From: a virus
Lineage: Duplodnaviria > Caudoviricetes
DNA: 58,071 nt
Direction: 5' to 3' (one strand)
IMG/VR virus record: IMGVR_UViG_3300040946_000134
Location: 1 to 58,071 of that record
Shown in pieces: positions 12,334 to 43,071 of this stretch (positions are counted from its first letter, which is position 1; each line of letters starts with the position of its first letter). The position numbers and the translations under genes are program-made. A model generated the notes under the pieces. It ran no database searches and had not been told where the DNA came from. It was given only the letters and a program-made list of their open reading frames with translations.

Positions 12334-12336
12334 GGT

Positions 12337-23740: not shown

Positions 23741-24049
23741 CTACTTTCTCCCTTCCGGCCAGAGTCGGTTGTCAACCGATAGGACCAATTCCTTCGCCTG
23801 ACCCTCGGAAATTATCCCGCGTGAATACGCCTGAATGATCAGCTGCTTCGAGAAGCTGGCGAATGAGGTTAATGAAAGTTTAATAAACCTCCTTTGCAGA
23901 AAGGTTTGTTGGGACATGAAGCGTTTATCTTCCGATTCCCACCCCTTTTTCCGCGCCTCCGCGCTCTCTGCGATGGCCCGTTGCTCTTTCTGCCGGCCGT
24001 CTTTCACGGCCGCGGATGCCTCTGCTGCTTTCAGTTTTCTGACGCTCAT
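23741..24049 (-). CDS. Hypothetical protein
   Basis: ATGA overlap with upstream gene. Confidence 0.55.
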   Translation of the reverse strand: MSVRKLKAAEASAAVKDGRQKEQRAIAESAEARKKGWESEDKRFMSQQTFLQRRFIKLSLTSFASFSKQLIIQAYSRGIISEGQAKELVLSVDNRLWPEGRK

Positions 24050-25113
24050 GCGGCCCTCCTTTCATGTTCCATCGCTACCTCGATGATCGGCCTAGCGAAG
24101 CATCGGCAGTTGAACGCCTCTCCCGGATTGTGATGCTCTCCTGTCCGCGGATTATCTACGGGCGGCTGATCCCAGTTTTGCCGCGTGCCATTGAGCGCCT
24201 GGTGTCCCGGGCGAACCCTATTGTCGTGGCGGCAATACCACACATACGAAGTTGAACCGGCGTTCTTCGCTCTCTCCATTCGGAACTTGGCCGTGAGCAG
24301 ACTCGTCTCTTGGGAGGCCAGGAAATTCGCCTTTCTCTTCGCCACCCCGAACTGCGCCTCTATCATCCGGGAGAGCTTGTCCAGACGCGCCCCGGACATA
24401 AGGTTGGCCTCGGCCATCTTCCTCAGCTCCAGAACTTGATCAGCGGAGAAGTTCTTGACCGATAGCTCTAGGTTCTGCGTGAGGGTCTTCACCAGCGCCT
24501 CGCGCACCGCAGGCTGAAGCTCTGGCGCGACCGTTATCGCCTCCAGCCCCTTCACGGACTTGTTGAACTGGGAGTTCAGGTCGATGAGGATTCTCGTTAT
24601 GGGCTGGGAAAGGTCCAGGCCGACTGGAGCCTGTGCCATGTTCCCGGCTATCTGAGTCAGCGTAGTTATGACCGCCCTATGCGCCGCCTCCGCCTGAGCC
24701 TGTGCCGTGGAAAGAGCGCCCCGGAGCTGGAATGGGATGGACGCCTCTTCGATCTTGTACACGCCCTTCTCCGAGTCATACCGAGCCCCAAGCGCCCTTA
24801 ATTCCCTGCTGACTTCTGAACCGAATCCCTGATCACTGCCGAAAACCCCGTCCGCGTACCAAACCCGGCCGGTGGCCAAGGCCTCCTCCAGGGCTGATCT
24901 CCCCGCGTTCTGCCTCTCCTCCCGGTTCAGTTTTTCCTTCCCGCTCTCGTCGAACTTTATGGCCTGATCCTTCGGGTTCAAGATCACCCCGGCTTCTATC
25001 AGGACGTCGAAGAGGGGCCTGAAAACCGCGTCTTTGAAGTAGGCCAGAAGCTCGCGTTCGACAAGCTGTCCGTACCCCTCTCGCCAGATAACGGGCTGGA
25101 GTATGCGCTGCAT
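24046..25113 (-). CDS. Head morphogenesis protein (SPP1 gp7 / Mu F-like)
   Basis: KANFLASQET, YVWYCRHDNRVRPGHQALNG, NPGEAFNCRCFARP motifs. Confidence 0.9.
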   Translation of the reverse strand: MQRILQPVIWREGYGQLVERELLAYFKDAVFRPLFDVLIEAGVILNPKDQAIKFDESGKEKLNREERQNAGRSALEEALATGRVWYADGVFGSDQGFGSEVSRELRALGARYDSEKGVYKIEEASIPFQLRGALSTAQAQAEAAHRAVITTLTQIAGNMAQAPVGLDLSQPITRILIDLNSQFNKSVKGLEAITVAPELQPAVREALVKTLTQNLELSVKNFSADQVLELRKMAEANLMSGARLDKLSRMIEAQFGVAKRKANFLASQETSLLTAKFRMERAKNAGSTSYVWYCRHDNRVRPGHQALNGTRQNWDQPPVDNPRTGEHHNPGEAFNCRCFARPIIEVAMEHERRAA

Positions 25114-25176
25114 CTTTGCTCTCCCTCTTGACATCAGGCTTGGCAATGGCAAGAAATCTTGCCTCTAAGAATTACC

Positions 25177-25953
25177 ATGAGCGAACTAAATGACCCGCTG
25201 GTTAACGCAGCTCTAGCCGGCGAGGGAACCATACCGAAGGCGCGGAACCCGAAAAAGATTTTCATGGGCTCCGCCATGCAGGACTCCATGCGCAAGGAAA
25301 CCTCTAATTTCTGGTCCAGCATCCGAGCCGGAATGATCCCCGACTACAAGTTCGTCACACTTCGCCTGAGCGGGTACGGGCTTCCCAAGTGTAGGAACGT
25401 CCTCACCTGGGTGGCGCGGCAGACGGACTGCGGCCGCATCATGATGGTGGACTCCGACATGAACCCAAGGCTAGAGGACGTGGTCAGGCTCCTGAGCCAC
25501 GACGTCGAGCTGGTCTCCGGCTGCTACCCGCAGAAGCGGTTCGACAAGCTCTCCTGGGTTGGTAACTTCTCCGGACCGGCCGGGCCCAACGGTCTAGCAC
25601 CGGCATATGACTTCGGTGGCGGCTTCTGCTCCATAAGCCTGGATTTCATTGACAAGATGGTCGAGCACTACCCGGAGACGGCCTTCGAGTCCGAGGATGA
25701 TCCCTGGCGCGGGAAGATCATGCATGATCTCTGGAGCAACGGACCCGTGACGGACGAATGGCATGGGAGGAAGTATTCTCGCTATCTGACCGAGGACTAT
25801 TACCTATGCTACCGGGCGCGCAAGATGGGCGTTACACCATGGATGGACTCCGGCTGTCAGGTCGGGCACGTTGGAAGCATCGACTACCTGCAGTTATGGA
25901 TGGGCGTGAAGGTTCTTGAGAACCAGTCGATCTTCCGGGCCCCAACGGATTAA
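25177..25953 (+). CDS. GT-A fold glycosyltransferase-like protein (only credible plus-strand gene)
   Basis: LPKCRN, IMMVDSD (DxD), VSGCYPQK, GGGF, YLTEDYYLCYRARKMG...VGHVG motifs; TTGACA at 25129-25134 upstream. Confidence 0.8.
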   Translation: MSELNDPLVNAALAGEGTIPKARNPKKIFMGSAMQDSMRKETSNFWSSIRAGMIPDYKFVTLRLSGYGLPKCRNVLTWVARQTDCGRIMMVDSDMNPRLEDVVRLLSHDVELVSGCYPQKRFDKLSWVGNFSGPAGPNGLAPAYDFGGGFCSISLDFIDKMVEHYPETAFESEDDPWRGKIMHDLWSNGPVTDEWHGRKYSRYLTEDYYLCYRARKMGVTPWMDSGCQVGHVGSIDYLQLWMGVKVLENQSIFRAPTD

Positions 25954-26582
25954 GTCATCAGGAACGGAGTCCAGTGAGGATGCTTGGCCTCCCGTATGGC
26001 GAAGGTCATTGGAACGGACGGTGGCGCTTTCGGGGCGCGCAGAAGCTGGAGACCGGCCTCCCGGTTCAGCCTGTTACCCTTCCGGCTATTGATCTCCACG
26101 TGGGACAGAACCAGGTTCTCCCAGGTGTCACGGCCTCCAAGATCCCGCGGAAGAACGTGGTCTATGTTTCCCTCGCTCGGCTTGAGCCTGCGGCCGGTGT
26201 ACTGGCAGACCCCTTGGTCACGCTCCCAGATCCCACGCCGGCAGAGACGCGGGCGCTTCATCGGGATCTTGTCGTAATTCTGCTGGATGATCACGGTCGG
26301 TGCGCGGATGCCGCCGTTCACGGTAGCGATAGCAAGGTCGTGTTCCCGGACCGGAAGCTGAATCCAGTCCTCCCATGGAACGGGCGAGGCGTTGGTCAAC
26401 TGGCCCATGTCCAGGCTTCCGTCCTCTCTACGCATAAAGTCCACGTCCATCCCGAACGCCGGGTGCCCTCCGCTGAGTCCTCCGGCCATCGCTATGACGG
26501 CCTCCCCCACGGTGAGCATTCCTATAGGCCTCCAGCTCCTGTTGAGGGAGAGGCAGATGGTTTTGTCGAGGACTCCTGTCAT
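25950..26582 (-). CDS. HNH endonuclease immediately downstream of the tRNA array
   Basis: LSLNRSWRPI, PTVII, IWERDQGVCQYTG, NIDHVLPRDLGGRDTWENLV...NSRKGN. Confidence 0.9.
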   Translation of the reverse strand: MTGVLDKTICLSLNRSWRPIGMLTVGEAVIAMAGGLSGGHPAFGMDVDFMRREDGSLDMGQLTNASPVPWEDWIQLPVREHDLAIATVNGGIRAPTVIIQQNYDKIPMKRPRLCRRGIWERDQGVCQYTGRRLKPSEGNIDHVLPRDLGGRDTWENLVLSHVEINSRKGNRLNREAGLQLLRAPKAPPSVPMTFAIREAKHPHWTPFLMT

Positions 26583-26595
26583 GGGAAAGGCTGCG

Positions 26596-26610
26596 CGTTC
26601 TTTTCGCAAA
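26596..26610. repeat. Inverted-repeat arm A of array-bracketing pair (CGTTCTTTTCGCAAA)
   Basis: Exact reverse complement of 29722-29736. Confidence 0.85.
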
Positions 26611-26703: not shown

Positions 26704-26795
26704 TGGCGGTGAGTTGAGGACCTGCCCCCCAGCCCATTTCTGGACGCCTGGTTTTCGAGACCAGTCGGCGCTCTATTGCACCTGCTTAACTCACC
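26704..26795 (-). tRNA. tRNA-Ser(CGA)
   Basis: CTGGT-CTCGAAA-ACCAG, long variable arm, G73, CCA. Confidence 0.85.
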
Positions 26796-26796
26796 A

Positions 26797-26871
26797 TGGT
26801 TTTCCCGCGGGGACTCCCACCCCGATCATACGTTTAGGAAACGTAGGCCCTGTGTCTTGGACGACGGGAAA
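26797..26871 (-). tRNA. tRNA-Arg(CCT)
   Basis: TACGT-TTCCTAA-ACGTA, CCA. Confidence 0.85.
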
Positions 26872-26872
26872 G

Positions 26873-26949
26873 TGGTGCCTCACCAGGGACTTCAACCCGT
26901 GATTTCGCGGTCCGTAGCCGCGTGTCCTGTGCATTTGGACGAATGAGGC
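26873..26949 (-). tRNA. tRNA-Arg(ACG)
   Basis: CGCGG-CTACGGA-CCGCG, CCA. Confidence 0.85.
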
Positions 26950-26953
26950 GAAA

Positions 26954-27029
26954 TGGCATCGGCGGCAGGAGTTGCACCCGCATATAGCGGCTTAGAAGAC
27001 CGCGGCCTTTCTGTTCGAGCCACGCCGAC
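26954..27029 (-). tRNA. tRNA-Arg(TCT)
   Basis: GCGGT-CTTCTAA-GCCGC, CCA. Confidence 0.85.
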
Positions 27030-27030
27030 G

Positions 27031-27105
27031 TGGTGCCTCCCGCCGGACTCTCACCGGCATCGCAGCCTTCGGAGGGCTGAATCCTATATCTTGGATGAGG
27101 GAGGC
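27031..27105 (-). tRNA. tRNA-Arg(CCG)
   Basis: CAGCC-CTCCGAA-GGCTG, CCA. Confidence 0.85.
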
Positions 27106-27112
27106 CTGAAAT

Positions 27113-27190
27113 TGGGGTGGTCAACGGGAACTGCCCCCGTCCCCTCGCCTTCACAGGGCGATGTGCTTGCCTATCCACACTCTGACCACC
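27113..27190 (-). tRNA. tRNA-His(GTG)
   Basis: TCGCC-CTGTGAA-GGCGA, encoded G-1 and C73, CCA. Confidence 0.9.
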
Positions 27191-27191
27191 A

Positions 27192-27262
27192 TGGGGCCTT
27201 CGTTCGGTTCCGCCCCGAATTGGCCGCGCTACAAGGGCGGCTTCCCGACTACGGACGAAGGC
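27192..27262 (-). tRNA. tRNA-Thr(TGT), atypical (short D-arm, C-C mismatch closing anticodon loop)
   Basis: GCCTTCG/CGAAGGC acceptor, loop CTTGTAG, CCA. Confidence 0.6.
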
Positions 27263-27267
27263 GAAGC

Positions 27268-27342
27268 TGGATCTCCGCTCCGGGCTTGCGCCGGACTCCC
27301 CAGTTTACGGGACTGGCGCGTCGCTGCCTACGCTTGCGGAGA
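27268..27342 (-). tRNA. tRNA-Thr(CGT), C33
   Basis: CCAGT-CCCGTAA-ACTGG, CCA. Confidence 0.8.
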
Positions 27343-27343
27343 A

Positions 27344-27436
27344 TGGTGCTCCCGTCTGGTGCTGCCCCAGAACCCGGCGCTGATCTAGCGCGATTCCGCT
27401 TATAAGGCGGACGGTTCGACTGCGAACTGCGGGAGC
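27344..27436 (-). tRNA. tRNA-Ile(TAT) with long variable arm
   Basis: TCCGC-CTTATAA-GCGGA, variable hairpin GCGCT...AGCGC, A73, CCA. Confidence 0.75.
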
Positions 27437-27437
27437 G

Positions 27438-27510
27438 TGCCCAGGGTCGGACTCGCACCGACAACCTTCCGGTTTTAAGGCGGACGGCTCTTCTGTTGGC
27501 CTACCCGGGC
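27438..27510 (-). tRNA. tRNA-Leu(TAA), short variable loop, no encoded CCA
   Basis: TCCGC-CTTAAAA-CCGGA, A73. Confidence 0.7.
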
Positions 27511-27514
27511 AAGA

Positions 27515-27589
27515 TGGTGCGCGCGAAGGGATTTGCACCCATAGGACGGTGGGTTTGAGCCACCGATGTCTTCATTGCATCACACGCGC
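27515..27589 (-). tRNA. tRNA-Leu(CAA), short variable loop
   Basis: GGTGG-CTCAAAC-CCACC, A73, CCA. Confidence 0.8.
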
Positions 27590-27590
27590 A

Positions 27591-27665
27591 TGGTAGCCCA
27601 TCCGGGTGCCGCCCCCGGTTCTGAAGTTCGAGAAACTTCTGACTTAGCTGATGGTCGAATGGGCC
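27591..27665 (-). tRNA. tRNA-Glu(CTC)
   Basis: GAAGT-TTCTCGA-ACTTC, CCA. Confidence 0.85.
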
Positions 27666-27675
27666 ATACTGAAAT

Positions 27676-27760
27676 TGGTGGGCACGGCAGGACTCGCACC
27701 TGCAAAGGTCGCCGGTCTGAACGGCGTGGCTGTACTGATTCGCTCTGATCCCACGTGCCC
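27676..27760 (-). tRNA. tRNA-Leu(CAG), short variable loop, enlarged D region
   Basis: CGCCG-TTCAGAC-CGGCG, A73, CCA. Confidence 0.75.
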
Positions 27761-27769
27761 GTAGGAAAT

Positions 27770-27846
27770 TGGTGCCGGCGATAGGATTCGCACCTACACT
27801 TGCCACCTTCTCAGGATGGTGCCTCTTCTAGTTGGGCTACGTCGGC
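27770..27846 (-). tRNA. tRNA-Leu(GAG), short variable loop
   Basis: CCATC-CTGAGAA-GGTGG, A73, CCA. Confidence 0.8.
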
Positions 27847-27847
27847 A

Positions 27848-27923
27848 TGGATCTGGTTGCGGGAATTACACCCGCCATCACTCGCTTACCAAGCGAGGTC
27901 CGCGTTGTCTCGGAGTAACCAGA
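27848..27923 (-). tRNA. tRNA-Thr(GGT)
   Basis: CTCGC-TTGGTAA-GCGAG, CCA. Confidence 0.8.
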
Positions 27924-27924
27924 G

Positions 27925-27999
27925 TGGTGGGGACGTGGCGACTTGCACGCCTCTCTTCCGGGTAAGGGCCGGAGTCATCGCTTTCTATGAGTCATCCCC
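27925..27999 (-). tRNA. tRNA-Lys(CTT), C33
   Basis: TCCGG-CCCTTAC-CCGGA, CCA. Confidence 0.8.
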
Positions 28000-28000
28000 G

Positions 28001-28075
28001 TGGCAGTCCCCGAAGGATTCGCACCTTCACCTCAGCGGTTCAAAGCCGCGTGCGCTGCTGTTACGCTAGAGGACC
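28001..28075 (-). tRNA. tRNA-Gln(TTG)
   Basis: GCGG-CTTTGAA-CCGC, G73, CCA. Confidence 0.85.
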
Positions 28076-28079
28076 AAAG

Positions 28080-28154
28080 TGGTCGGAGCGGTGAGAGTCG
28101 GACTCACTTGGTCTTGTTCCCGAAACAAGTGCCTGGCCGTTAGGCTACGCTCCG
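28080..28154 (-). tRNA. tRNA-Pro(CGG)
   Basis: CTTGT-TTCGGGA-ACAAG, C1-G72, A73, CCA. Confidence 0.9.
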
Positions 28155-28155
28155 C

Positions 28156-28229
28156 TGGTTCTCACGGCCGGTAACGCTCCGGCTTCCCTTGCATGTCGAG
28201 CAAGTGCTCTGCTTCTGAGCTACGCGAGA
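28156..28229 (-). tRNA. tRNA-Val(GAC), C33
   Basis: CTTGC-TCGACAT-GCAAG, CCA. Confidence 0.8.
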
Positions 28230-28230
28230 A

Positions 28231-28304
28231 TGGCTCTCCAGGATGGTACTGCCCCACCTTCACACGGGTCAGAGCCGTGGGTAATGCTTCTATACGACTG
28301 GAGA
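28231..28304 (-). tRNA. tRNA-Gln(CTG)
   Basis: CACGG-CTCTGAC-CCGTG, U1-A72, G73, CCA. Confidence 0.85.
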
Positions 28305-28308
28305 ATAA

Positions 28309-28485
28309 TTCCCAGGTGGGATTGTATACCCACCGTGGCCGTGATAGGCGTGTTGGTGACGACGCCTCGTTACTTCTACCGTGCGGCCTAACCATACTCA
28401 TCTCGGCCGCTACACCCGCTCCGTATCGCTACACCGGGTATGCTCTCAAGGCCCTGATTAACGCCCGACCTGACGTGGCTGGAAA
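28309..28485 (-). ncRNA. Unassigned ~177-nt structured RNA inside the tRNA array
   Basis: Ends pair (TTTCCAG/CTGGGAA); internal helices GCGGCC/GGCCGC, AGGCGT/ACGCCT, GGTGGG/CCCACC; the only large non-tRNA gap in the array. Confidence 0.6.
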
Positions 28486-28560
28486 TGGCTGCTAGGGCAA
28501 GACTCGCACTTGCATAATACCGCTTAACAGGCGGGCGCACGACTATTGTGCTACCTAGCA
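28486..28560 (-). tRNA. tRNA-Asn(GTT)
   Basis: CCGC-CTGTTAA-GCGG, U1-A72, G73, CCA. Confidence 0.9.
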
Positions 28561-28564
28561 AAAG

Positions 28565-28638
28565 TGGTGGGGAATGAACGTGCTGCCCGCTCGACTCCTG
28601 AGTGTGGATCAGGTATGATTCTGTTTCAACAATCCCCC
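28565..28638 (-). tRNA. tRNA-Val(CAC), C33
   Basis: CCTGA-TCCACAC-TCAGG, CCA. Confidence 0.8.
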
Positions 28639-28639
28639 G

Positions 28640-28716
28640 TGGCGGTCCCAAGGAATGCTGCCTTCCTCTCTCCCGCGTGACGGGCGGGCGCTTTCAGCTA
28701 GGTAAGCTATGAGACC
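28640..28716 (-). tRNA. tRNA-Asp(GTC), C33
   Basis: CCCGC-CCGTCAC-GCGGG, G73, CCA. Confidence 0.85.
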
Positions 28717-28723
28717 GTGAAAG

Positions 28724-28798
28724 TGGTATAGACGGGGAGAATCGGACTCCCTTAATCTCGGTCCCAAGCCGAGCGATCAACCAATGACCCACGTCTGT
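28724..28798 (-). tRNA. tRNA-Pro(TGG)
   Basis: CTCGG-CTTGGGA-CCGAG, CCA. Confidence 0.8.
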
Positions 28799-28799
28799 G

Positions 28800-28875
28800 T
28801 GGTGGAGGCTCCCGGTGCCGCCCCGGGTTATCCGGTTCTTCAGACCGGCGCAATGACTGCACTTGCTCAACCTCC
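28800..28875 (-). tRNA. tRNA-Phe(GAA)
   Basis: CCGGT-CTGAAGA-ACCGG, CCA. Confidence 0.85.
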
Positions 28876-28882
28876 ATGAAAG

Positions 28883-28958
28883 TGGCATGCCCGGTAGGTA
28901 CTGCCCCTACATGAACCGGATTTGGAGTTCGGCGCCTTCCTTGTCGAGCCACGGGCAT
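28883..28958 (-). tRNA. tRNA-Trp(CCA)
   Basis: CCGAA-CTCCAAA-TCCGG, G73, CCA. Confidence 0.85.
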
Positions 28959-28964
28959 AAAAGA

Positions 28965-29038
28965 TGGGAGCAGGGGTGGGAGTCGCACCCACGACAGCCG
29001 CGGTTATGAGCCGAGCCAGAACGCTGGTTCTCCCTGCC
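28965..29038 (-). tRNA. tRNA-Met(CAT) (initiator vs elongator unresolved)
   Basis: CTCGG-CTCATAA-CCGCG, CCA. Confidence 0.75.
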
Positions 29039-29042
29039 AAGG

Positions 29043-29116
29043 TGGTGGTCAAGCACGGTGCTGCCCCGTAGTCTGACGGTTATCGACCGTCTGCTCTGCT
29101 GTTGAGCTACATGACC
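29043..29116 (-). tRNA. tRNA-Ile(GAT), C33
   Basis: GACGG-TCGATAA-CCGTC, CCA. Confidence 0.85.
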
Positions 29117-29117
29117 G

Positions 29118-29202
29118 TGGTCCAGGCGGTAGGACTCGCACCTACGAAGTCCGGAGACAACCGGGTTACGGCCGGTCGCGTTTGCTACTCTGCCACGCCT
29201 GG
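29118..29202 (-). tRNA. tRNA-Tyr(GTA), C33, C1-G72
   Basis: ACCGG-CCGTAAC-CCGGT, variable hairpin, acceptor CCAGGCG/CGCCTGG, A73, CCA. Confidence 0.8.
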
Positions 29203-29203
29203 A

Positions 29204-29278
29204 TGGTGCCCCAGTCCGGTAACGCTCCGGATCAGCCTGTTTGGAAGACAGGTGCGCATCTGTAAACGCTTCTGAGGC
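29204..29278 (-). tRNA. tRNA-Gly(TCC)
   Basis: CCTGT-CTTCCAA-ACAGG, A73, CCA. Confidence 0.85.
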
Positions 29279-29283
29279 GAAAT

Positions 29284-29358
29284 TGGTGGATCGTGTCGGT
29301 AACCCTCCGACTCCTCCCGGGTGCGGACCGGGTGTGCTTGTTTTACCACTAACGACCC
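29284..29358 (-). tRNA. tRNA-Ala(CGC), C33
   Basis: CCCGG-TCCGCAC-CCGGG, G3-U70 present, CCA. Confidence 0.85.
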
Positions 29359-29362
29359 AAGG

Positions 29363-29437
29363 TGGACGCGCATCCGGGTAATGCTCCCGGCCGTTCTGTT
29401 TTGCGGACAGACCCTCACTCTTGTCAGGCAATGCGCG
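29363..29437 (-). tRNA. tRNA-Cys(GCA), C33
   Basis: TCTGT-CCGCAAA-ACAGA, U73, CCA. Confidence 0.85.
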
Positions 29438-29444
29438 CTGAAAT

Positions 29445-29520
29445 TGGTGGCCCCGTCGGGTATCCCTCCCGCTTCATCTGCTTAAAAGGCAGCTGCTCAT
29501 GTGGCTAAAGCTTCGGAGCC
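29445..29520 (-). tRNA. tRNA-Lys(TTT)
   Basis: CTGC-CTTTTAA-GCAG, CCA. Confidence 0.8.
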
Positions 29521-29521
29521 G

Positions 29522-29595
29522 TGGTGCGGGCGCGGGGAGTCGCACCCCGGCCGAGTCGTTGGCAACGACCCATTCTGCTGCTGAACTACGCCCGC
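29522..29595 (-). tRNA. tRNA-Gly(GCC)
   Basis: GTCG-TTGCCAA-CGAC, A73, CCA. Confidence 0.9.
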
Positions 29596-29600
29596 GAAAA

Positions 29601-29675
29601 TGGTACCCCGTGAGAGTGCTACCCTCTCTTTTCCGGCTTGAAAGGCCAGTGAACTAGTTGGTATTCGAACGGGGC
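29601..29675 (-). tRNA. tRNA-Glu(TTC)
   Basis: GGC-CTTTCAA-GCC, CCA; first tRNA of the transcript. Confidence 0.85.
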
Positions 29676-29721
29676 TCGAAAGCCGGTTACGCCTAGCGGC
29701 GATCGGACCGGCTATCTTTGA

Positions 29722-29736
29722 TTTGCGAAAAGAACG
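29722..29736 (-). promoter_or_regulatory. boxA-like element / inverted-repeat arm B (RNA: CGUUCUUUUCGCAAA)
   Basis: GTTCTTT core resembles rrn boxA; perfectly complementary to 26596-26610. Confidence 0.6.
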
Positions 29737-29824
29737 TGACCTGGGCTCTGGTTAGGAAATCCTCCTCTGGTTTTTGAGGCGTTCGCTCGTTCGATTGAGC
29801 CGAGCTTAGAGGCTCCTGGTGATT

Positions 29825-29858
29825 AAAAAGGCCCGGGTCTTTCTGGGACCGCGGGCCT
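29825..29858 (-). terminator. Intrinsic terminator (attenuator) upstream of tRNA array
   Basis: AGGCCCG-C-GGTC-CCAGAAA-GACC-CGGGCCT followed by TTTT. Confidence 0.8.
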
Positions 29859-29894
29859 AAAGTGGGTGAACTGTTTCGCTCGCTTCAGGCGCGC
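29851..29894 (-). promoter_or_regulatory. Antiterminator hairpin overlapping the terminator 5' arm
   Basis: GCGCGCCTGAAG (29894-29883) pairs with CTTTAGGCCCGC (29862-29851) at 11 of 12 positions. Confidence 0.7.
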
Positions 29895-29905
29895 ATTCCT
29901 TTGGG

Positions 29906-29983
29906 TTAATTATCGGCCGTATGCCCTGCCCATAGGCAGCGGCTTGACCGATAACCGGATTCAATTGTGAAGGTTGGCTGCAT
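29906..29983 (-). CDS. Putative attenuator leader peptide MQPTFTIESGYRSSRCLWAGHTADN (25 aa)
   Basis: ATG ~20 nt after the -10; 25 different codons, 18 amino acids; stop 11 nt before the antiterminator. Confidence 0.7.
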   Translation of the reverse strand: MQPTFTIESGYRSSRCLWAGHTADN

Positions 29984-30003
29984 GGATTTCTGAAGAGGGG
30001 GAC

Positions 30004-30033
30004 AGTAAAAGCACTGCGACACGACCTTGTAAA
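30004..30033 (-). promoter_or_regulatory. Sigma70-like promoter for leader/tRNA array
   Basis: TTTACA-18 nt-TTTACT with upstream AAAAATAG; overlapped by direct repeat AGTGCTTT(T)AC. Confidence 0.55.
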
Positions 30034-30043
30034 GCACTATTTT

Positions 30044-30271
30044 TCAGACCAGGACCGCGATTATGTCCAGGACGGATTCCGCCCCGTCGTCCTGATAGCG
30101 CCCGTCCACGCCCCAAAGTTCCATGTACTCGATGTTGCCGGGAGGACCGCGCCAGCCCCGGTATGGGAAGACGTTGTATGGGTAGCCATCCTTGGTTGCG
30201 ATCGCATCCACCAGCGCAACCTCTCCGTTGCGGAGTCTGGCCTTGAAGGGTACTTTGGGCGGGAGGGTCAT
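30044..30271 (-). CDS. Hypothetical protein
   Basis: ATGA-coupled ORF; ARLRNG...WGVDGRY...LDII pattern common in small phage proteins. Confidence 0.6.
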   Translation of the reverse strand: MTLPPKVPFKARLRNGEVALVDAIATKDGYPYNVFPYRGWRGPPGNIEYMELWGVDGRYQDDGAESVLDIIAVLV

Positions 30272-32523
30272 TTTGTCGCAGGCTCTATCCTGACCGTGAC
30301 CTTCGGACCGACCACCGGCTCAGCGACGCAGGCCACGCTCATCTTGTTCTTGCGCTCCTCGAAGAAGGCGCGGGCCAGCTTTCTATTGTAGGCTCCGCCG
30401 GCATTCTCCTGACGGGCCACCTTCCAGTGGGAATCGTGGGGCTCGTGCCAGCAAACGTCGTCCGTGTAGGCGCGGCTCCTCCACCAGTCTTCCGGCTGGA
30501 TCGTCATGTACGAATGCGGCGCTCCGCCGTCCGCCCATTCTTCCGCGAGGGTCCGCATGCAAAGGTCCCAGGCTTCCCGGCCGGTCAGCATGTCAGGCAT
30601 CTTCTCCCGGTGCGCGGCCCACCAAGCCGGGCTCATCGCTATCACGTCCATCCCGCCATCGACCTTGCAGTTCTTCACGCTGCGGTAGGCCCTCCCAGGC
30701 TCGGGGCAGGTCAGCACGCGCCTTGGGCATATGGTAACCCCTTTTCCTCGTTCCACGCCCGCCACGAGCCTTTGCGCGGCCTCCGTGGTCAATCCTATGT
30801 CCTCATTGATGTAAACGATAATGTCTTCCGGCAAGGCTGTTTTGGCCCCGGCGTCCAGGAGATCCCGGATGTACGGCGTCCCGTGCTCGTCCCCCACGTC
30901 CCGGCCGGTCCGCGCGATCTCGGATTCGCAGACGGCCCGCTCCAGCATCTGGAATTGCCCGAAGAGGAAGCGCCAGGTCGCGTGGGCGTTCGCCATCCGC
31001 CTGCTTTCCTCTTTGTCCTTTGGCTGATATGGAGCGTGAACGAGAATCAGCTGCGGAGGCGGCGTTATCCCCTTCCGCATGATCGCTTGGGTCCGCGCCC
31101 TGTCGTAGCCACGGGTCAGCGGCCGAAGGTCCCCGGACTTCTCAGCACGGACGGTCCCGGAGCCCATGTGCGAGCCGTAGTACGACAAGAGCTTGTCCAC
31201 GTACAGCCAGGTCGGGAAGGCCTGGATGGTCCGCAGGTAAACCATGATTTCCGTCCCCAGCAGCATCCCGGGACGCTCCAGGCATTCGTTGTGGACCAAG
31301 GTCGCCGCGGCCTCCTTGCAAGCGTGGATCAGGACCGATCTGTTGAGGACCGAAACCACCGGGGAAAGAGAGAGCGTCCCGAAGCGGGCCACGAGCCCCT
31401 GGAGTTCTTTCGACTGCATGACCCGCGTCCCCCCTTGCCAGTATTCCGTTGGGCGAATGGATCCGTCCTCGTTCTTCACGTGGCCGCGCCAGGAAGCGAA
31501 CCCCACCCCGGAGTCCAGGATCGGGCTGATGATCTTGCAGTAGGTTTCCCCAAACTCTGGCAGAAGTTCGTCATCGTCGTGGAAGAGGATGATTCTCTCC
31601 GTCCGGCTGCCGTATGCAGCGAGGATCCACGTGTCGTTGCAGCCAACGTCGTGGGGAGTTCGGTTCACGTCGTAGGAAAGCCAGCCCTGCCGGTTCCAGT
31701 CTATCGTGAACTCCGTTCCCGAGCACGGGTCGGAAGCGCCTATCGAGACCCGGCGGATGCCGGCCGCTCGGATGGACTTCAGGGCGCGGTCCAGGTATTC
31801 CGGGCGTCGGTAGCTGGTTATGCACACCGTCAGGTTCTCCAGGATTGGATTGCTGACCACCTCCACCGCCTTGACCTCGCTTGCCGGCCAGTGAACGTAA
31901 AGGGAATCCGATCCCAGGTTCATCCTCTCCGCGTAGCCGTGGTCAGAGAACCACTTCTTTATATCCGTGAGAGATCCGGCCCCTTCATAGTGCCCGTGCT
32001 CGACGGTCTCGTCCGTCTCCAGGAAGATCAGTTTGGGGCGAAGGTCTCCGAGGCCCTGGAGCACCGCCAGCTCCGCGCCTTGCACGTCCACGTGCAACAG
32101 ATCAATGGACGCAATCCCCGCGCCGCAGCAGAAGGAGTCTAGCCGGACGGCTTCCACCTTGTACGGCTCCCGGAACTTAAGGTGCGGAGCGTCTTTCGCC
32201 AGCGTCTCCGTGGGCTTCAGTATGGAGCCGCTCATCCCTAGCTTCAGGTTCAGGTGCTCGTCCGAGTTGGAATGGAACTCCACTTCTCCATCTCGGTCGC
32301 AGACCGCCGCGTGGTGGACTTCTATCCCCGCCCGCGCCGCTTCTCCTGCTGCGAGGATCGCCGCGTGGTTGTCCTTGTCCGCCTCGAATGCTATGACCCG
32401 CGCCCCGGGGTGCGCCTCCTTGAACATGATCGCGTCCTTCGCGTCATAGGTCCCAACGTCCAGGATGACGGCTGGGGCTTCGCCGAGGTTGGATTCGATC
32501 CATTCAGTCTTAAGTTGGGTCAT
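30268..32523 (-). CDS. Multidomain FkbM-family methyltransferase / GT2 glycosyltransferase fusion
   Basis: VILDVG, RVIAFEA, IDLLHVDVQGAELAVLQG (FkbM); VCITSYRRPEYLDRALKSI, ILFHDDD (GT2); third GT-like domain with YINED. Confidence 0.85.
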   Translation of the reverse strand: MTQLKTEWIESNLGEAPAVILDVGTYDAKDAIMFKEAHPGARVIAFEADKDNHAAILAAGEAARAGIEVHHAAVCDRDGEVEFHSNSDEHLNLKLGMSGSILKPTETLAKDAPHLKFREPYKVEAVRLDSFCCGAGIASIDLLHVDVQGAELAVLQGLGDLRPKLIFLETDETVEHGHYEGAGSLTDIKKWFSDHGYAERMNLGSDSLYVHWPASEVKAVEVVSNPILENLTVCITSYRRPEYLDRALKSIRAAGIRRVSIGASDPCSGTEFTIDWNRQGWLSYDVNRTPHDVGCNDTWILAAYGSRTERIILFHDDDELLPEFGETYCKIISPILDSGVGFASWRGHVKNEDGSIRPTEYWQGGTRVMQSKELQGLVARFGTLSLSPVVSVLNRSVLIHACKEAAATLVHNECLERPGMLLGTEIMVYLRTIQAFPTWLYVDKLLSYYGSHMGSGTVRAEKSGDLRPLTRGYDRARTQAIMRKGITPPPQLILVHAPYQPKDKEESRRMANAHATWRFLFGQFQMLERAVCESEIARTGRDVGDEHGTPYIRDLLDAGAKTALPEDIIVYINEDIGLTTEAAQRLVAGVERGKGVTICPRRVLTCPEPGRAYRSVKNCKVDGGMDVIAMSPAWWAAHREKMPDMLTGREAWDLCMRTLAEEWADGGAPHSYMTIQPEDWWRSRAYTDDVCWHEPHDSHWKVARQENAGGAYNRKLARAFFEERKNKMSVACVAEPVVGPKVTVRIEPATK

Positions 32524-33314
32524 TTTCTAAGTCTCCAAAGCGCGTGTGGGTGATAGGAAAGCCCAATGTACTCCTCGGCCACCAGCGTGTAGTAGGCGTC
32601 CAGGAGCGGCCGGAAATTCTGGTGCGGCGTGAAGGAGTCTGCCGGGGTGTTCCAGGTGAAGTAGGCGTCGTGGTTCTTCTCCGTTCCATGGACCACGGTG
32701 AAGAGATACGGCACCTTCAGGTCCTTCAGAACGTCCAGCCAGCGGCGGATCTGCTCCAGGGAGCATTCTGACCAGGAGTGGACATTCACGGCCAGGTCGA
32801 ACTTCCGGTCCTCCGCCGTCTCCGCGAACTGGTCCAGGTCCAGGACCGATACTGATGGGGCGAAGCGGTGGCAATAATGCCGGCAGATTTGGGTCGATAT
32901 GGGAACCGGGTCCACGCAGGTGACGGTGGTCATCATTGGAGCCAGCGCAACCGCCAGCCTCCCGTACCCGGCCCCTATGTCCAGAACGTCACGGAAGCGA
33001 AGAGCGCTGGATATGTTCCTGCGAATGAAGTCGATCTCCACGCAGGAGTCCAGCCACATGCGGGTCACCTGTCCAAAGTCCTCCGTGTAAACTAAACGTG
33101 CCCCATACTCTCGGTCCCTGGTTCGTGCCGCTAGATCGTTCCAATACGGAAGCGATTTAATCCCCCTTGCAACCCTCCTGAACTCTTCTTCTGGTATGGA
33201 TTCCTGGTCCACGTAAATCTTGTCCGCGCAGAAGTTCGGGAGCGCGTCCTTCACCTTCTGTTGCCAGGTCTCCCAGAAGGAGAGTTCTCGCAAGCCTTCG
33301 AGGTCAATGGTCAT
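32520..33314 (-). CDS. Class I SAM-dependent (sugar O-) methyltransferase
   Basis: VLDIGAGYGRLA, FDLAVNVHSWSEC motifs. Confidence 0.85.
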   Translation of the reverse strand: MTIDLEGLRELSFWETWQQKVKDALPNFCADKIYVDQESIPEEEFRRVARGIKSLPYWNDLAARTRDREYGARLVYTEDFGQVTRMWLDSCVEIDFIRRNISSALRFRDVLDIGAGYGRLAVALAPMMTTVTCVDPVPISTQICRHYCHRFAPSVSVLDLDQFAETAEDRKFDLAVNVHSWSECSLEQIRRWLDVLKDLKVPYLFTVVHGTEKNHDAYFTWNTPADSFTPHQNFRPLLDAYYTLVAEEYIGLSYHPHALWRLRK

Positions 33315-34006
33315 CAGCAGAACACCCTGTCCGGGTTTCCAATCTTCTCGCAGAACCCCACGGCCAGCCGGACGTTCTCCAGCTGCTCCGCGCAGTCCTT
33401 CTCTCCTATCCACTGCGGCTTGTGTGGCTCATGCCAGCACACCCCGTCCGTCACAGCTTGTGATTTCAGAAGCGCCTCGGTGCTCCTATCTAGCGGCTCC
33501 TTTTCCGGCTTCCCGTCCGCCCATACTTGAGCGATCAGCGTGAAGATCATGTCCCAACCTCCGCGCCCAACGTACATCGGCGGCATCTTGCGGCCGGGAT
33601 TATTCCACCATTCCCGTGAACAGGCTACCAGGTCTATGCCGGCGTCCATCTCCCACGCTGAAAGGTCGTCGTACAGAACGTCCGGCCGCGGAACCACGGA
33701 TCTCCGAGGGCATACCGTGACGCCATGGCCCCTGGCTATCCCGCGGGATATCAGCTGGAGCGCGTTCTTGGTCAGCCCCGCGTCCGAATTAGCATAGGCT
33801 ATGATGTCGGTGTCATCCGCCGCGTGGCAGGCGGCGTCCAGAAGTTCCGTTATCCGCAGGTGGCGATGGGGAGGCTGCGCAAGTGGCATGAAGGCCAGCT
33901 GCGGCCCGTCGTCTGGAAGGTCCATCCATGAACGCTCCGCACGCTTCCTCCGGCGCTCATCGTCCGAGTTCTGGTATGGATAGACTGCGTGGGTCAGGTA
34001 GATCAT
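33314..34006 (-). CDS. Glycosyltransferase-like protein, paralogous to the C-terminal domain of 30268-32523
   Basis: DIIAYANSD, GVTVCPRR, GIDLVA, VCWHEPH shared with the neighbour. Confidence 0.65.
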   Translation of the reverse strand: MIYLTHAVYPYQNSDDERRRKRAERSWMDLPDDGPQLAFMPLAQPPHRHLRITELLDAACHAADDTDIIAYANSDAGLTKNALQLISRGIARGHGVTVCPRRSVVPRPDVLYDDLSAWEMDAGIDLVACSREWWNNPGRKMPPMYVGRGGWDMIFTLIAQVWADGKPEKEPLDRSTEALLKSQAVTDGVCWHEPHKPQWIGEKDCAEQLENVRLAVGFCEKIGNPDRVFC

Positions 34007-42753: not shown

Positions 42754-43071
42754 CTATTTCGGAATAGGCTCCGCGCCCTTCCGCTCATCTGCAAGGCGCG
42801 TGCTGTGGGCGAAGGTGGGCCCGATGGCGGCCGTGCTTTTAAGCACCGTTTCTCGCAGGGTTTCCGGGGCAGACGCGAACACTTGAGCCGTTTCTTTGGT
42901 CCTCTTGCGGTCTGCGCCCCACATCACCAAGACGTTCGCCTCGCTCATTCCGTTCTCCTTGGCGTCGGTCTGGATTTGCTCCAGCAGTTCCGCGGGGAGC
43001 CTGAAGGCCCGGAAGATCCGCGCTTTCCCGGTCTTCGGCCTGCCTAGCTTCTTTTTTTCTGGTTCGCTCAT
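42754..43071 (-). CDS. Putative ribbon-helix-helix DNA-binding protein
   Basis: GRPKTG...FRLPAELLEQIQTDAKENGMSEANVL; TTGACA at ~43102. Confidence 0.6.
   Translation of the reverse strand: MSEPEKKKLGRPKTGKARIFRAFRLPAELLEQIQTDAKENGMSEANVLVMWGADRKRTKETAQVFASAPETLRETVLKSTAAIGPTFAHSTRLADERKGAEPIPK

What the first reader, a model, noticed from the sequence alone, without database searches (positions are those of the whole stretch)
29825..30038. Candidate pan-tRNA translational attenuator: a leader ORF that uses each tRNA once gates a 36-tRNA array
Seen (minus strand): promoter TTTACA/TTTACT, then ATG CAG CCA ACC TTC ACA ATT GAA TCC GGT TAT CGG TCA AGC CGC TGC CTA TGG GCA GGG CAT ACG GCC GAT AAT TAA. 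All 25 codons differ (about 0.3% by a hand birthday-type estimate with uniform codons, not corrected for picking it out after the fact) and cover 18 amino acids. Repeated amino acids use codons of different isoacceptors: Thr ACC/ACA/ACG, Ser TCC/TCA/AGC, Arg CGG/CGC, Gly GGT/GGG, Ala GCA/GCC. A hairpin GGTTATCGGTC/GGCCGATAATT lies inside the ORF. An antiterminator (GCGCGCCTGAAG/CTTTAGGCCCGC, 11/12 bp) starts 11 nt after the stop and is mutually exclusive with an intrinsic terminator just before the tRNAs. Established: his/trp/thr-type attenuators use runs of one or two amino acids; this is the inverse design. Inference: a ribosome reaching the stop occludes the antiterminator and transcription terminates. 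A stall at any codon (tRNA cleavage by anticodon nucleases or toxins, starvation, antibiotics) allows read-through and supplies a full replacement tRNA set.
Basis: partly seen in the sequence, partly recalled or inferred. Interest (0 to 1): 0.95.

Follow-up and report, generated by a model that had tools for sequence, protein, structure and literature searches.

The report
Leader and terminator before phage tRNAs
A 58-kb peat phage places a promoter, a short 25-codon reading frame that never repeats a codon, and a strong transcription stop signal ahead of about 36 unusual tRNA genes; this may be a switch that senses translation, but that could not be shown here.

Summary
On the minus strand there is a promoter-like pair of hexamers and a 25-codon ATG ORF (29983-29906). 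All 25 codons differ, they fall in 25 decoding classes and cover 18 amino acids. A strong hairpin lies inside the ORF. A 12-nt segment 11 nt after the stop pairs 11/12 with the 5' arm of an intrinsic terminator (29857-29825). About 36 tRNA genes follow, but only after a 150-nt spacer.

The codon diversity is rare: 1 of 266 short ATG ORFs in the window, and Markov nulls give 0.2% (codons) and about 0.01% (decoding classes). It was picked out after the fact. The -35 region is conserved in distant relatives, where it precedes the major-head gene.

The interpretation stays untested. No related array could be fetched. The ATG has no Shine-Dalgarno. A 99%-identical contig turns the stop into CAA. 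The leader's codons match the array's anticodons no better than chance (19/25 against 20.1 expected). A ribosome at UAA would barely reach the antiterminator.

My best reading is a switchable leader terminator gating the tRNA operon, with the ribosome as the most likely input (about 0.3). Rivals are bypass by antiterminated late transcription, a small-RNA gene, and factor-dependent antitermination.

The parts
30025..30041 (-). Conserved promoter-region motif AAATAGTGCTTTACAAGG, holding the -35-like TTTACA (30033-30028)
   Evidence: Relatives whose glycosyltransferase homologue is only 44-53% identical carry AAATAGTGCTTGACGG or AAATAGTTG(T)TGAC right after that gene. These are L087, L089 (= L090), L088 (= L001) and L084. 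In L089 the motif is followed by a ~190-nt UTR and a major-head-protein gene.
30004..30009 (-). -10-like hexamer TTTACT, 18 nt after the -35-like hexamer
   Evidence: Read. It lacks A at position 2, is not reported by the consensus scan, and no -10 is conserved in the relatives.
30008..30038 (-). Two copies of AGTGCTTT, start-to-start spacing 23 nt, one over each hexamer
   Evidence: the repeat finder family D1. The motif AGTGCTTTWAC occurs nowhere else in the window with fewer than 2 mismatches.
29906..29983 (-). 25-codon ATG ORF (MQPTFTIESGYRSSRCLWAGHTADN) plus TAA; all codons distinct
   Evidence: No Shine-Dalgarno. No database protein shares words with the 43-aa GTG-extended form. The stop reads CAA in one contig of run X4.
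29908..29956 (-). Hairpin A: an 11-bp outer stem (3 G-U pairs) with an inner 8-bp stem, entirely inside the ORF (codon 10 to the stop)
   Evidence: Present in the MFE; -26.9 kcal/mol alone. The X4 variant T29908C turns G29956-U29908 into G-C.
29883..29894 (-). Antiterminator 5' arm GCGCGCCUGAAG, starting 11 nt after the stop codon
   Evidence: Duplex with the 3' arm is -18.7 kcal/mol against a shuffle mean of -9.7 (z -3.1; 15 of 2,000 shuffles as good).
29851..29862 (-). Antiterminator 3' arm CUUUAGGCCCGC; 29857-29851 is also the terminator's 5' arm
   Evidence: The antiterminator is in the MFE of transcripts ending at 29852-29835 and is replaced by the terminator once 29830 is reached.
29825..29857 (-). 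Intrinsic terminator: 10-bp G+C-rich stem with one bulge, 7-nt loop, UUUUU
   Evidence: -18.1 to -20.2 kcal/mol. Tied for most stable of the 9 minus-strand hairpin+U-tract candidates in the window. Pair probabilities 0.92-0.99 at equilibrium.
29676..29824 (-). 150-nt spacer between the terminator and the first tRNA; no recognised promoter; more variable than the leader in near-identical contigs
   Evidence: L083 differs from the window at 4 places here (29742, 29743, 29749, 29763) and at 0 of 219 places in 30043-29825. X4 shows the same changes plus 29775.
26705..29675 (-). Array of about 36 tRNA genes, head to tail, nearly all with an encoded CCA
   Evidence: Two compensatory double changes in the anticodon stem of tRNA-Arg(ACG) appear in contigs of runs X4 and X6.

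Best explanation
The segment is the 5' leader of the phage's tRNA operon, and I read it as a transcription attenuator.

Layout: a promoter fires into a strongly folded RNA of about 170 nt. Its -35 region is conserved in distant relatives. The RNA ends in one of the two most stable intrinsic terminators on the coding strand. The roughly 36 tRNA genes, and behind them an HNH gene, lie downstream on the same strand. No other promoter is recognisable, so they are reached only by read-through.

Switch: a 12-nt segment upstream (29894-29883) can pair with the terminator's 5' arm about as strongly as the terminator's own stem, and it is transcribed first. Termination should therefore be partial and switchable.

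Input: the only sensor visible in the sequence is the 25-codon ORF. It begins about 14 nt after the predicted start site, covers hairpin A, and ends 11 nt before the antiterminator arm. My leading mechanism is ribosome-dependent attenuation. A ribosome that finishes the ORF on time disturbs the antiterminator and lets the terminator form. A delayed or stalled ribosome leaves the antiterminator intact, and the polymerase runs into the tRNA genes.

What is shown: the elements, their energies, their mutual exclusivity, the rarity of the codon pattern, and the conserved promoter motif.

What is inferred: the start site, translation of the ORF, any coupling to termination, and any meaning of the codon diversity.

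I put about 0.5 on 'a conditional terminator with some input' and about 0.3 on the full statement with the ribosome as that input.
For: - The leader folds far better than shuffles: MFE -137.2 kcal/mol, z -3.68, 0 of 100 shuffles as good.
- Terminator -20.2 and antiterminator -19.4 kcal/mol share 7 nt. The antiterminator is the MFE at transcript ends 29852-29835.
- The antiterminator duplex is stronger than all but 15 of 2,000 shuffles.
- The -35 region motif is conserved behind the homologous gene in four distinct relatives (L084, L087, L088, L089), and precedes the major-head gene in L089.
- No promoter-like site is found on the minus strand between the terminator and the array.
- All-distinct codon use is rare: 1 of 266 short ATG ORFs in the window; 4 of 1,328, and 0 by class, in relatives' DNA; Markov P about 2e-3, and about 1e-4 by class.
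- Context: the phage also encodes an RtcB-type tRNA ligase (E 2.9e-70).
- Precedent: a bacterial tRNA array is known to be switched on by translational stress together with rtcB, though through a promoter-bound repressor (passages of PMC8421152; abstract of PMC10272220).
- The leader is invariant in L083 (0 of 219 places). With 6 differences in 645 nt overall this is not significant.
Against: - No Shine-Dalgarno before the ATG (duplex +0.2 kcal/mol against a median of -4.25 for 58 called genes).
- The -10 hexamer lacks the key A.
- In one contig of run X4 (depth 3.3, 2 differences in 202 nt) the stop codon is CAA.
- The codon set is not matched to the array: 19 of 25 covered against 20.1 expected.
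- The pairing of the 5' UTR and start codon with the antiterminator arm, which would make 'no translation' give termination, is no better than chance (101 of 2,000 shuffles as good; other upstream windows pair as well or better).
- At equilibrium the terminator wins (0.92-0.99 against 0.05-0.07).
- By recalled ribosome footprint sizes, a ribosome at UAA stops about 2 nt short of the antiterminator arm.
- An RNA-library contig of a 92%-similar relative runs across the promoter from upstream, so transcription may also enter from the preceding genes.
- No relative with an array could be examined, so there is no covariation or ORF-conservation evidence at all.
Confidence: 0.3

Rival explanations
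1. An ordinary terminator that closes the upstream unit of accessory genes (two methyltransferase/glycosyltransferase genes and a 75-aa ORF) and any local promoter activity. During the lytic cycle the tRNA array and the structural genes behind it are transcribed by terminator-resistant, or simply leaky, late transcription coming from upstream. The 25-codon ORF and its codon pattern are chance.
For: - The array sits inside the late/structural block: terminase 37156-38367, portal 35172-36806, then methyltransferases, leader, array, HNH, MuF 24046-25152 and the major head gene 20645-21814, all on the minus strand.
- Relatives at about 50% portal identity have no array at all: 0 of 81 loci and 0 of 17 loci. 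The methyltransferase-array-HNH block therefore looks like an insertion.
- An RNA-library contig of a relative bridges the upstream sequence, the promoter region and the ORF start.
- The stop codon of the ORF is not fixed.
- The codons are not matched to the array.
Against: - The promoter-region motif is conserved, which argues that transcription starts here.
- The antiterminator complementarity is above chance.
- The codon diversity has P about 1e-4 to 2e-3 per ORF.
- No antiterminator protein was recognised among the 46 window proteins scanned, although most of them matched nothing.
Confidence: 0.3
2. A stand-alone small-RNA gene: promoter, about 170 nt of hairpins, terminator. The tRNA array is driven by a promoter of its own in the 150-nt spacer, which the consensus scan does not recognise.
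For: - The anatomy is promoter + structured RNA + strong terminator.
- A 150-nt spacer separates the terminator from the first tRNA.
- The spacer evolves faster than the leader in near-identical contigs.
Against: - No promoter-like site is found in the spacer, and the conserved motif occurs only at 30041-30025.
- No Rfam family matches the leader. The only hit up to E 10 is a 12-bit match on the other strand.
- No homologue of the RNA turned up in phage or plasmid records or in the four viral-contig and two genome-contig pattern scans, three of which used leader patterns and three tRNA patterns.
Confidence: 0.15
3. A conditional terminator whose input is not the ribosome. Either a phage protein or the leader RNA itself (hairpin A) makes the polymerase terminator-resistant, as in lambda Q at pR'-tR' or the put RNAs of HK022. 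Or a repressor binds the two AGTGCTTT repeats over the promoter, as in the Anabaena tRNA array.
For: - Two 8-nt direct repeats lie over the -35-like and -10-like hexamers.
- A weak Arc-like (ribbon-helix-helix) hit at 42754-43071, E 0.0012.
- The Anabaena array is controlled by a ribbon-helix-helix repressor acting on direct repeats at the promoter.
- The terminator lies about 170 nt from the predicted start, as in lambda's 6S RNA unit (recalled).
Against: - No Q-, N- or LoaP-like protein was recognised.
- The repeat motif is absent upstream of rtcB and everywhere else in the window.
- Only the first copy of the motif is seen in relatives.
Confidence: 0.15

Closest known systems
Leader-peptide (ribosome-mediated) transcription attenuators of amino-acid operons (trp, his, thr, leu, pheA)
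   Same: A short ORF in the leader, an antiterminator that shares bases with an intrinsic terminator, and regulated genes downstream on the same strand.
   Different: - Those leaders hold runs of one or two regulatory codons; this ORF never repeats a codon.
- The regulated genes here are tRNAs, not biosynthetic enzymes.
- The anti-antiterminator pairing is not above chance.
- There is no Shine-Dalgarno.
The geometry of the known systems is recalled, not tested here.
uORFs that sense general translation stress, such as toiL upstream of topAI-yjhQ in E. coli (PMC12121999, seen only as title and start of abstract in the listing), and antibiotic-sensing leaders such as ermBL and bmrB (listing)
   Same: In concept, a short ORF whose ribosomes report on the state of translation in general rather than on one amino acid.
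   Different: Those act on ribosome-targeting drugs and, for toiL, through Rho and translation (recalled). None gates tRNA genes, and none is described as using every codon once. My searches for 'tRNA array' with 'leader peptide' or 'attenuation' listed no paper that held 'tRNA array' among the 15 shown of 562.
The tRNA L-array (trn operon) of Anabaena sp. PCC 7120 and its TrcR regulon
   Same: A long horizontally moving tRNA array that is silent by default, is induced when translation is impaired, and is co-regulated with rtcB (passages of PMC8421152; abstract of PMC10272220). This phage has both an array and an rtcB gene.
   Different: Control there is by a ribbon-helix-helix repressor on 9-nt direct repeats over the -10 box and the start site. 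The words 'leader', 'attenuat' and 'terminator' occur 0 times in PMC8421152. Here a terminator stands between the promoter and the array.
Lambda pR'-tR' (6S RNA) with Q, and the put RNAs of HK022 (recalled, not tested)
   Same: A phage promoter followed within about 200 nt by a strong terminator, ahead of late genes.
   Different: No Q-like protein was found. The unit lies in the middle of the structural block, not ahead of the terminase.
T-box riboswitches
   Same: A leader RNA that couples tRNA status to an antiterminator/terminator choice.
   Different: No T-box or any other Rfam family matches the leader, even at E up to 10.

Membership tests
Leader-peptide transcription attenuator | Intrinsic terminator in the 5' leader, upstream of and co-oriented with the regulated genes | tested here: met
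   Stem of -18 to -20 kcal/mol plus UUUUU at 29857-29825; the array starts at 29675 on the same strand.
Leader-peptide transcription attenuator | Antiterminator that is mutually exclusive with the terminator | tested here: met
   29894-29883 pairs with 29862-29851 and shares 7 nt with the terminator stem; -19.4 against -20.2 kcal/mol; z -3.1 against shuffles.
Leader-peptide transcription attenuator | Short ORF that is translated (ribosome-binding signal, expression) | tested here: inconclusive
   The ATG ORF is present. It has no Shine-Dalgarno, but only 24 of 58 called genes have one. Translation itself cannot be tested with these tools.
Leader-peptide transcription attenuator | Regulatory codons: a run of codons for the amino acid that is sensed | tested here: not met
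25 different codons and no run.
Leader-peptide transcription attenuator | Anti-antiterminator / pause structure that the ribosome masks | tested here: inconclusive
   The 5' UTR/AUG pairs with the antiterminator arm in the full-length MFE, but 101 of 2,000 shuffles pair as well. Hairpin A could act as a pause hairpin (inference).
Leader-peptide transcription attenuator | ORF and alternative hairpins conserved in related operons | not testable with these tools
   No related array was found in IMG/VR, JGI metagenomes, GTDB genomes, phage or plasmid records. Closer relatives exist only in Logan/ENA, and the tool that fetches them is closed.
Intrinsic (Rho-independent) terminator | G+C-rich hairpin directly followed by a U tract | tested here: met
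   The simple consensus scan misses it, probably because of the bulged C (my reading).
Sigma-70-type promoter | -35 and -10 hexamers at 16-18 nt, with A2 and T6 in the -10 | tested here: not met
   TTTACA matches 5 of 6. TTTACT lacks A at position 2. Not reported by the scan. The -35 region is nevertheless conserved in relatives.
T-box riboswitch or other curated RNA family | Match to an Rfam covariance model | tested here: not met
   No hit in the leader at E up to 1. At E up to 10 there is only a 12-bit hit on the plus strand.
Lambda-type Q / pR'-tR' late control | An antiterminator protein gene in the phage | tested here: inconclusive
   None of the 46 window proteins scanned matched an antiterminator family, but most matched nothing.
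TrcR-type repressor control of a tRNA array | Tandem direct repeats over the -10 box and start site, shared with rtcB; a ribbon-helix-helix repressor | tested here: inconclusive
   Two AGTGCTTT repeats lie 23 nt apart over the two hexamers. There is no copy near rtcB. There is a weak Arc-like hit, E 0.0012.

The most novel reading that the evidence does not exclude
The ORF is a deliberately 'pan-codon' sensor. By visiting 25 different decoding classes once each, its ribosome is delayed when any of many host tRNAs is cleaved or depleted. That delay leaves the antiterminator intact and opens the phage's own set of about 36 tRNAs, which carry unusual T loops. The phage also encodes an RtcB ligase. 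This would be a transcription attenuator that senses the tRNA pool as a whole and answers tRNA-targeting defence on demand.
Probability: 0.12. Interest if true: 0.9.

Novelty: new variant of a known kind. Interest (0 to 1): 0.55.

Why it matters
Phage tRNAs are now thought to replace host tRNAs destroyed by anticodon nucleases. I saw titles and abstract starts only for PMC10264068, PMC11464382 and PMC11555353. How a phage decides when to make them is unknown. The one regulated tRNA array studied, in Anabaena, uses a repressor.

A leader terminator that reads the state of translation and gates a complete replacement tRNA set would be a new logic for attenuation: diversity of codons instead of a run of one. 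It would also be a direct link between defence-inflicted damage and the counter-measure.

Even if the ORF is chance, two things are unusual and testable. One is a strong terminator standing between a conserved promoter and about 36 tRNA genes. The other is the array itself: about 5% of a 58-kb genome, with no T loop carrying the otherwise near-universal U55.

Tried and rejected
Relatives, searched for by protein:
- Single-protein scans with the portal, MuF and the 751-aa protein found only L001, which has no array.
- A portal alignment found 80 IMG/VR loci, none with an array.
- L002 (82% portal identity) is syntenic, but the contig ends at the equivalent of window 32683.
- An alignment of the 751-aa protein found 17 JGI contigs, 0 with tRNAs. 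L083 covers the leader but is 99.07% identical.

Relatives, searched for by DNA pattern. All gave 0 hits:
- terminator;
- arms of hairpin A;
- loops of tRNA-Glu;
- the double promoter motif;
- loops of tRNA-Pro.

blastn against phage records gave 23 records, each covering at most 2% of the query and none over the leader. Against plasmids there was no match.

Protein look-ups for the leader ORF:
- The 43-aa form shares no words with any database protein.

Ideas dropped:
- T-box or another curated RNA family.
- A recognisable antiterminator protein.
- Codon-to-anticodon matching between the leader and the array.
- The 5' UTR-to-antiterminator pairing as a designed anti-antiterminator.
- Lack of a Shine-Dalgarno as a decisive argument.
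- Stop-codon read-through. The leader ORF is in frame with the 75-aa ORF across its TGA, but the X23 relative has one A fewer in the run of A's between them, so the frame is not kept.

RNA libraries:
- Contigs from two metatranscriptome runs (X21, X23) match parts of the array. One X23 contig spans 29592-29796, and another spans 29955-30043 and runs on upstream.
- No RNA-run contig covers 29797-29954.
- These are contigs, DNA can be present in such libraries, and a part without cover proves nothing. I therefore do not use them as evidence of expression, of a start near 29796 or of termination.

No supplements were opened; those of PMC8421152 (promoter mapping) may bear on the comparison.
Full report
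WHAT THE WINDOW IS

The window is a whole virus record of 58,071 bases. Nearly all ORFs lie on the minus strand. Reading down the minus strand, family searches identify:
- RecT-like and exonuclease genes, an RtcB-type tRNA ligase (52959-54140, E 2.9e-70) and a DnaC-like loader;
- the large terminase (37156-38367) and the portal (35172-36806);
- two methyltransferase/glycosyltransferase genes (32520-33413 and 30268-32523) and a 75-aa ORF (30044-30271);
- the segment in question, then the tRNA array;
- an HNH endonuclease (25950-26609), a MuF-like head protein (24046-25152), the major head protein (20645-21814) and a tail sheath (16165-17307).

The array therefore sits inside the structural block.

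The ORF at 29983-29906 has 25 sense codons. All are different. They encode 18 amino-acid kinds and fall into 25 different decoding classes when NNC and NNU are merged.

The 415-nt leader folds at -137.2 kcal/mol, z -3.68, with 0 of 100 shuffles as good. The separate elements:
- hairpin A inside the ORF (29956-29908): -26.9 kcal/mol;
- the antiterminator (29894-29883 with 29862-29851): -19.4 kcal/mol;
- the terminator (29857-29830, then UUUUU to 29825): -20.2 kcal/mol.

The last two share seven bases. Among nine hairpin-plus-U-tract candidates on the minus strand of the whole window, this terminator is tied for the most stable.

Two corrections:
- The first tRNA, a perfect cloverleaf with anticodon UUC and an encoded CCA at 29675-29601, begins 150 nt after the U tract.
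- The -10-like hexamer lacks the A at position 2, and the consensus scan reports nothing on this strand.

IS THE CODON PATTERN MORE THAN CHANCE?

Per ORF, yes.
- The uniform estimate is 0.32%.
- Markov nulls give 0.17-0.20% for distinct codons and about 0.01% for distinct decoding classes.
- In the window, this is the only one of 266 ATG ORFs of 20-35 codons with the property. Only 14 of 63,181 stop-free 25-codon windows have it, and 2 of 63,181 by class.
- In 846,529 bases of related phage DNA, 4 of 1,328 ATG ORFs of 23-27 codons have all-distinct codons. None is all-distinct by class. None of 1,367 ORFs of 25-30 codons qualifies.

The pattern was noticed after the fact by a reader looking for anything odd. 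I therefore treat it as suggestive, not as proof of design.

THE ARRAY

- ARAGORN at default finds 13 genes.
- Rfam gives 14 hits, 13 of them above the gathering score.
- A cloverleaf scan of my own finds 30 non-overlapping genes, 29 of them with CCA.
- Folds of the gaps add five that I read by hand: Met-CAU, Leu-CAG, Arg-ACG, Ser-CGA, and a Thr-UGU-like gene with a 9-nt loop. A 181-nt stretch stays unresolved.

The genes are real. Contigs of two DNA runs carry two compensatory double changes in the anticodon stem of tRNA-Arg(ACG), at window 26920 with 26908 and at 26919 with 26909.

THE PROMOTER HAS COMPARATIVE SUPPORT

The glycosyltransferase homologue of several relatives is only 44-53% identical. 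Even so, AAATAGTGCTTGACGG or a close variant follows directly after that gene in L084, L087, L088 (= L001) and L089 (= L090). The window has AAATAGTGCTTTACAAGG at the start of the leader.

In L089 the motif is followed by about 190 nt of untranslated RNA and then a major-head-protein gene (E 1.5e-37). The motif is therefore most simply the -35 region of a promoter for highly expressed late genes. No -10 is conserved.

In the window the core AGTGCTTT occurs twice, 23 nt apart, once over each hexamer. It occurs nowhere else.

WHAT COULD NOT BE DONE: THE COMPARATIVE TEST

No related array could be reached.
- Portal relatives at about 50% identity lack arrays (0 of 81 loci).
- The 17 JGI contigs found with the glycosyltransferase alignment also lack them.
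- Six pattern scans gave nothing.
- Phage and plasmid records gave no match to the leader.
- Portal homologues of 64-83% identity exist on contigs of up to 66.5 kb, but only in Logan and ENA. The tool that fetches those is closed.

Only near-identical copies of the leader were seen.
- L083 is 99.07% identical over window 30300-29656. It has 0 differences in 30043-29825, 2 in the 75-aa ORF and 4 in the spacer. With 6 differences in 645 nt, zero in 219 is not significant.
- A contig of DNA run X4 (29794-29995, depth 3.3) has two differences. One lies 5 nt before the ATG. The other turns the stop TAA into CAA.
- That second change also converts the G-U pair at the base of hairpin A into G-C. It would extend the ORF by seven codons to a UGA inside the antiterminator arm, repeating ATG, CGC and GCC.
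- So the one informative substitution keeps the RNA structure and does not keep the ORF's end or its 'each codon once' property. It would, however, leave a terminating ribosome squarely on the antiterminator.

MECHANISM

Folding transcripts of growing length gives this order:
- First the 5' UTR and start codon pair with the antiterminator arm.
- Then the antiterminator forms (transcript ends 29852-29835).
- Then the terminator forms, once 29830 is out.

At equilibrium the terminator dominates (pair probabilities 0.92-0.99 against 0.05-0.07). The two helices are nearly equal in energy and the antiterminator is made first, so partial, switchable termination is a reasonable expectation.

The antiterminator duplex is stronger than all but 15 of 2,000 shuffles. 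The 5' UTR pairing is not special: 101 of 2,000 shuffles are as good, and other upstream windows pair as well.

For the ribosome model in particular:
- The ATG has no Shine-Dalgarno, but neither do 34 of the 58 called genes.
- By recalled footprint sizes, a ribosome at UAA ends about 2 nt before the arm.
- The leader's codons do not mirror the array. 19 of 25 have a cognate tRNA there, against 20.1 expected by chance. All three Ser codons, both Ala codons and CUA have none. 14 of 35 array anticodons are never probed.

COMPARISON WITH WHAT IS KNOWN

- The architecture (ORF, antiterminator, terminator) is that of leader-peptide attenuators. The defining run of regulatory codons is absent, and conservation is untestable.
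- uORFs that sense translation stress in general are known, for example toiL (title and start of abstract).
- A bacterial tRNA array induced by translational stress is known. It is controlled by a repressor on promoter repeats, and the paper never mentions a leader, attenuation or a terminator.
- A search for 'tRNA array' with 'leader peptide' or 'attenuation' listed no paper holding the first term among the 15 shown of 562.
- No Rfam family matches the leader.

VERDICT

My estimates:
- about 0.5 that the terminator is conditional;
- about 0.3 that the ribosome on this ORF is the input;
- about 0.12 that the codon diversity is itself the design.

The main rival, at 0.3, is an ordinary terminator bypassed by late transcription, with a chance ORF. 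A small-RNA gene and a factor-dependent antitermination or repressor scheme each get 0.15.

The decisive data are the Logan/ENA contigs of the closer relatives and end-mapping of transcripts. They exist or are easy to obtain, which is why the finding keeps a middling-to-high interest score.

Noticed in passing
window 26705-29675 (-): None of the 30 tRNAs found by my cloverleaf scan has U at the second T-loop position (the near-universal U55). The loops fall into three groups: UGCRANU-like, GGCRGYA-like and AGSRUUA-like. 29 of 30 have an encoded CCA. ARAGORN at default recognises only 13, and Rfam does not report the first tRNA (Glu-UUC) even at E up to 10.
   Followed up: partly
window 27846-27773, 27589-27518, 27510-27438 (-): The Leu tRNAs (anticodons GAG, CAA, UAA) are 72-74 nt long with a 5-nt variable region, so they lack the long variable arm of bacterial tRNA-Leu. 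A Leu-CAG-like gene at about 27760-27680 instead has an enlarged D region.
   Followed up: no
window 28305-28485 (-) and 27190-27267 (-): A 181-nt stretch folds with a 7-bp acceptor-like stem and a T-arm-like hairpin around a large insert, and has no CCA. A neighbouring tRNA-like gene has a 9-nt anticodon loop, CCUUGUAGC.
   Followed up: no
window 26876-26949 (-): Contigs of DNA runs X4 and X6 carry two compensatory double substitutions in the anticodon stem of tRNA-Arg(ACG): C-G to G-C and G-C to C-G. This is evidence that the odd tRNAs are under selection for structure.
   Followed up: partly
window 52959-54140 (-); terminator-like hairpin at about 52808: An RtcB-type tRNA/RNA ligase gene (PHROG 1075, E 2.9e-70), followed by a hairpin plus UUUU. 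Together with the array it suggests a phage equipped against tRNA cleavage.
   Followed up: no
L088 11930-12130, L089 2206-2392, L084 12146-12390: In relatives, the conserved promoter motif is followed by a 190-230-nt untranslated leader before the major head gene. L088 and L089 share a hairpin with covarying arms just before the start codon: AACGAAGU/ACUUCGUU against GAACGAAA/UUUCGUUUC.
   Followed up: no
window 25950-26609 (-): An HNH endonuclease gene lies directly behind the array. This recalls the homing endonuclease SegB in the tRNA region of T4, which is cited in the reference list of PMC8421152.
   Followed up: no
window 25159-25953 (+): A 264-aa plus-strand ORF lies between HNH and MuF, antisense to the late transcription direction. 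It has a 29%-identical counterpart in L001, and similar sequence sits convergent to the glycosyltransferase gene in L086, L093 and L094.
   Followed up: no
window 30037-30046 (-): The leader ORF, in its GTG-extended 43-aa form, is in the same frame as the 75-aa ORF, separated only by TGA AAA ATA. The X23 relative has one A fewer in the run of A's there, so the frame is not kept.
   Followed up: partly
window 11717-11790 (+): ARAGORN calls a lone tRNA-Pro(tgg) on the plus strand, inside a 315-aa minus-strand ORF (11462-12409). It may be a false positive.
   Followed up: no
window 26857 and 27670 (+ strand places): Contigs of three runs (X4, X6, X21) break away from the window at 26857, and contigs of all four runs at 27670, each time into the same foreign sequence. 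The array is therefore mosaic in the population, or shares short pieces with other organisms' tRNAs.
   Followed up: no
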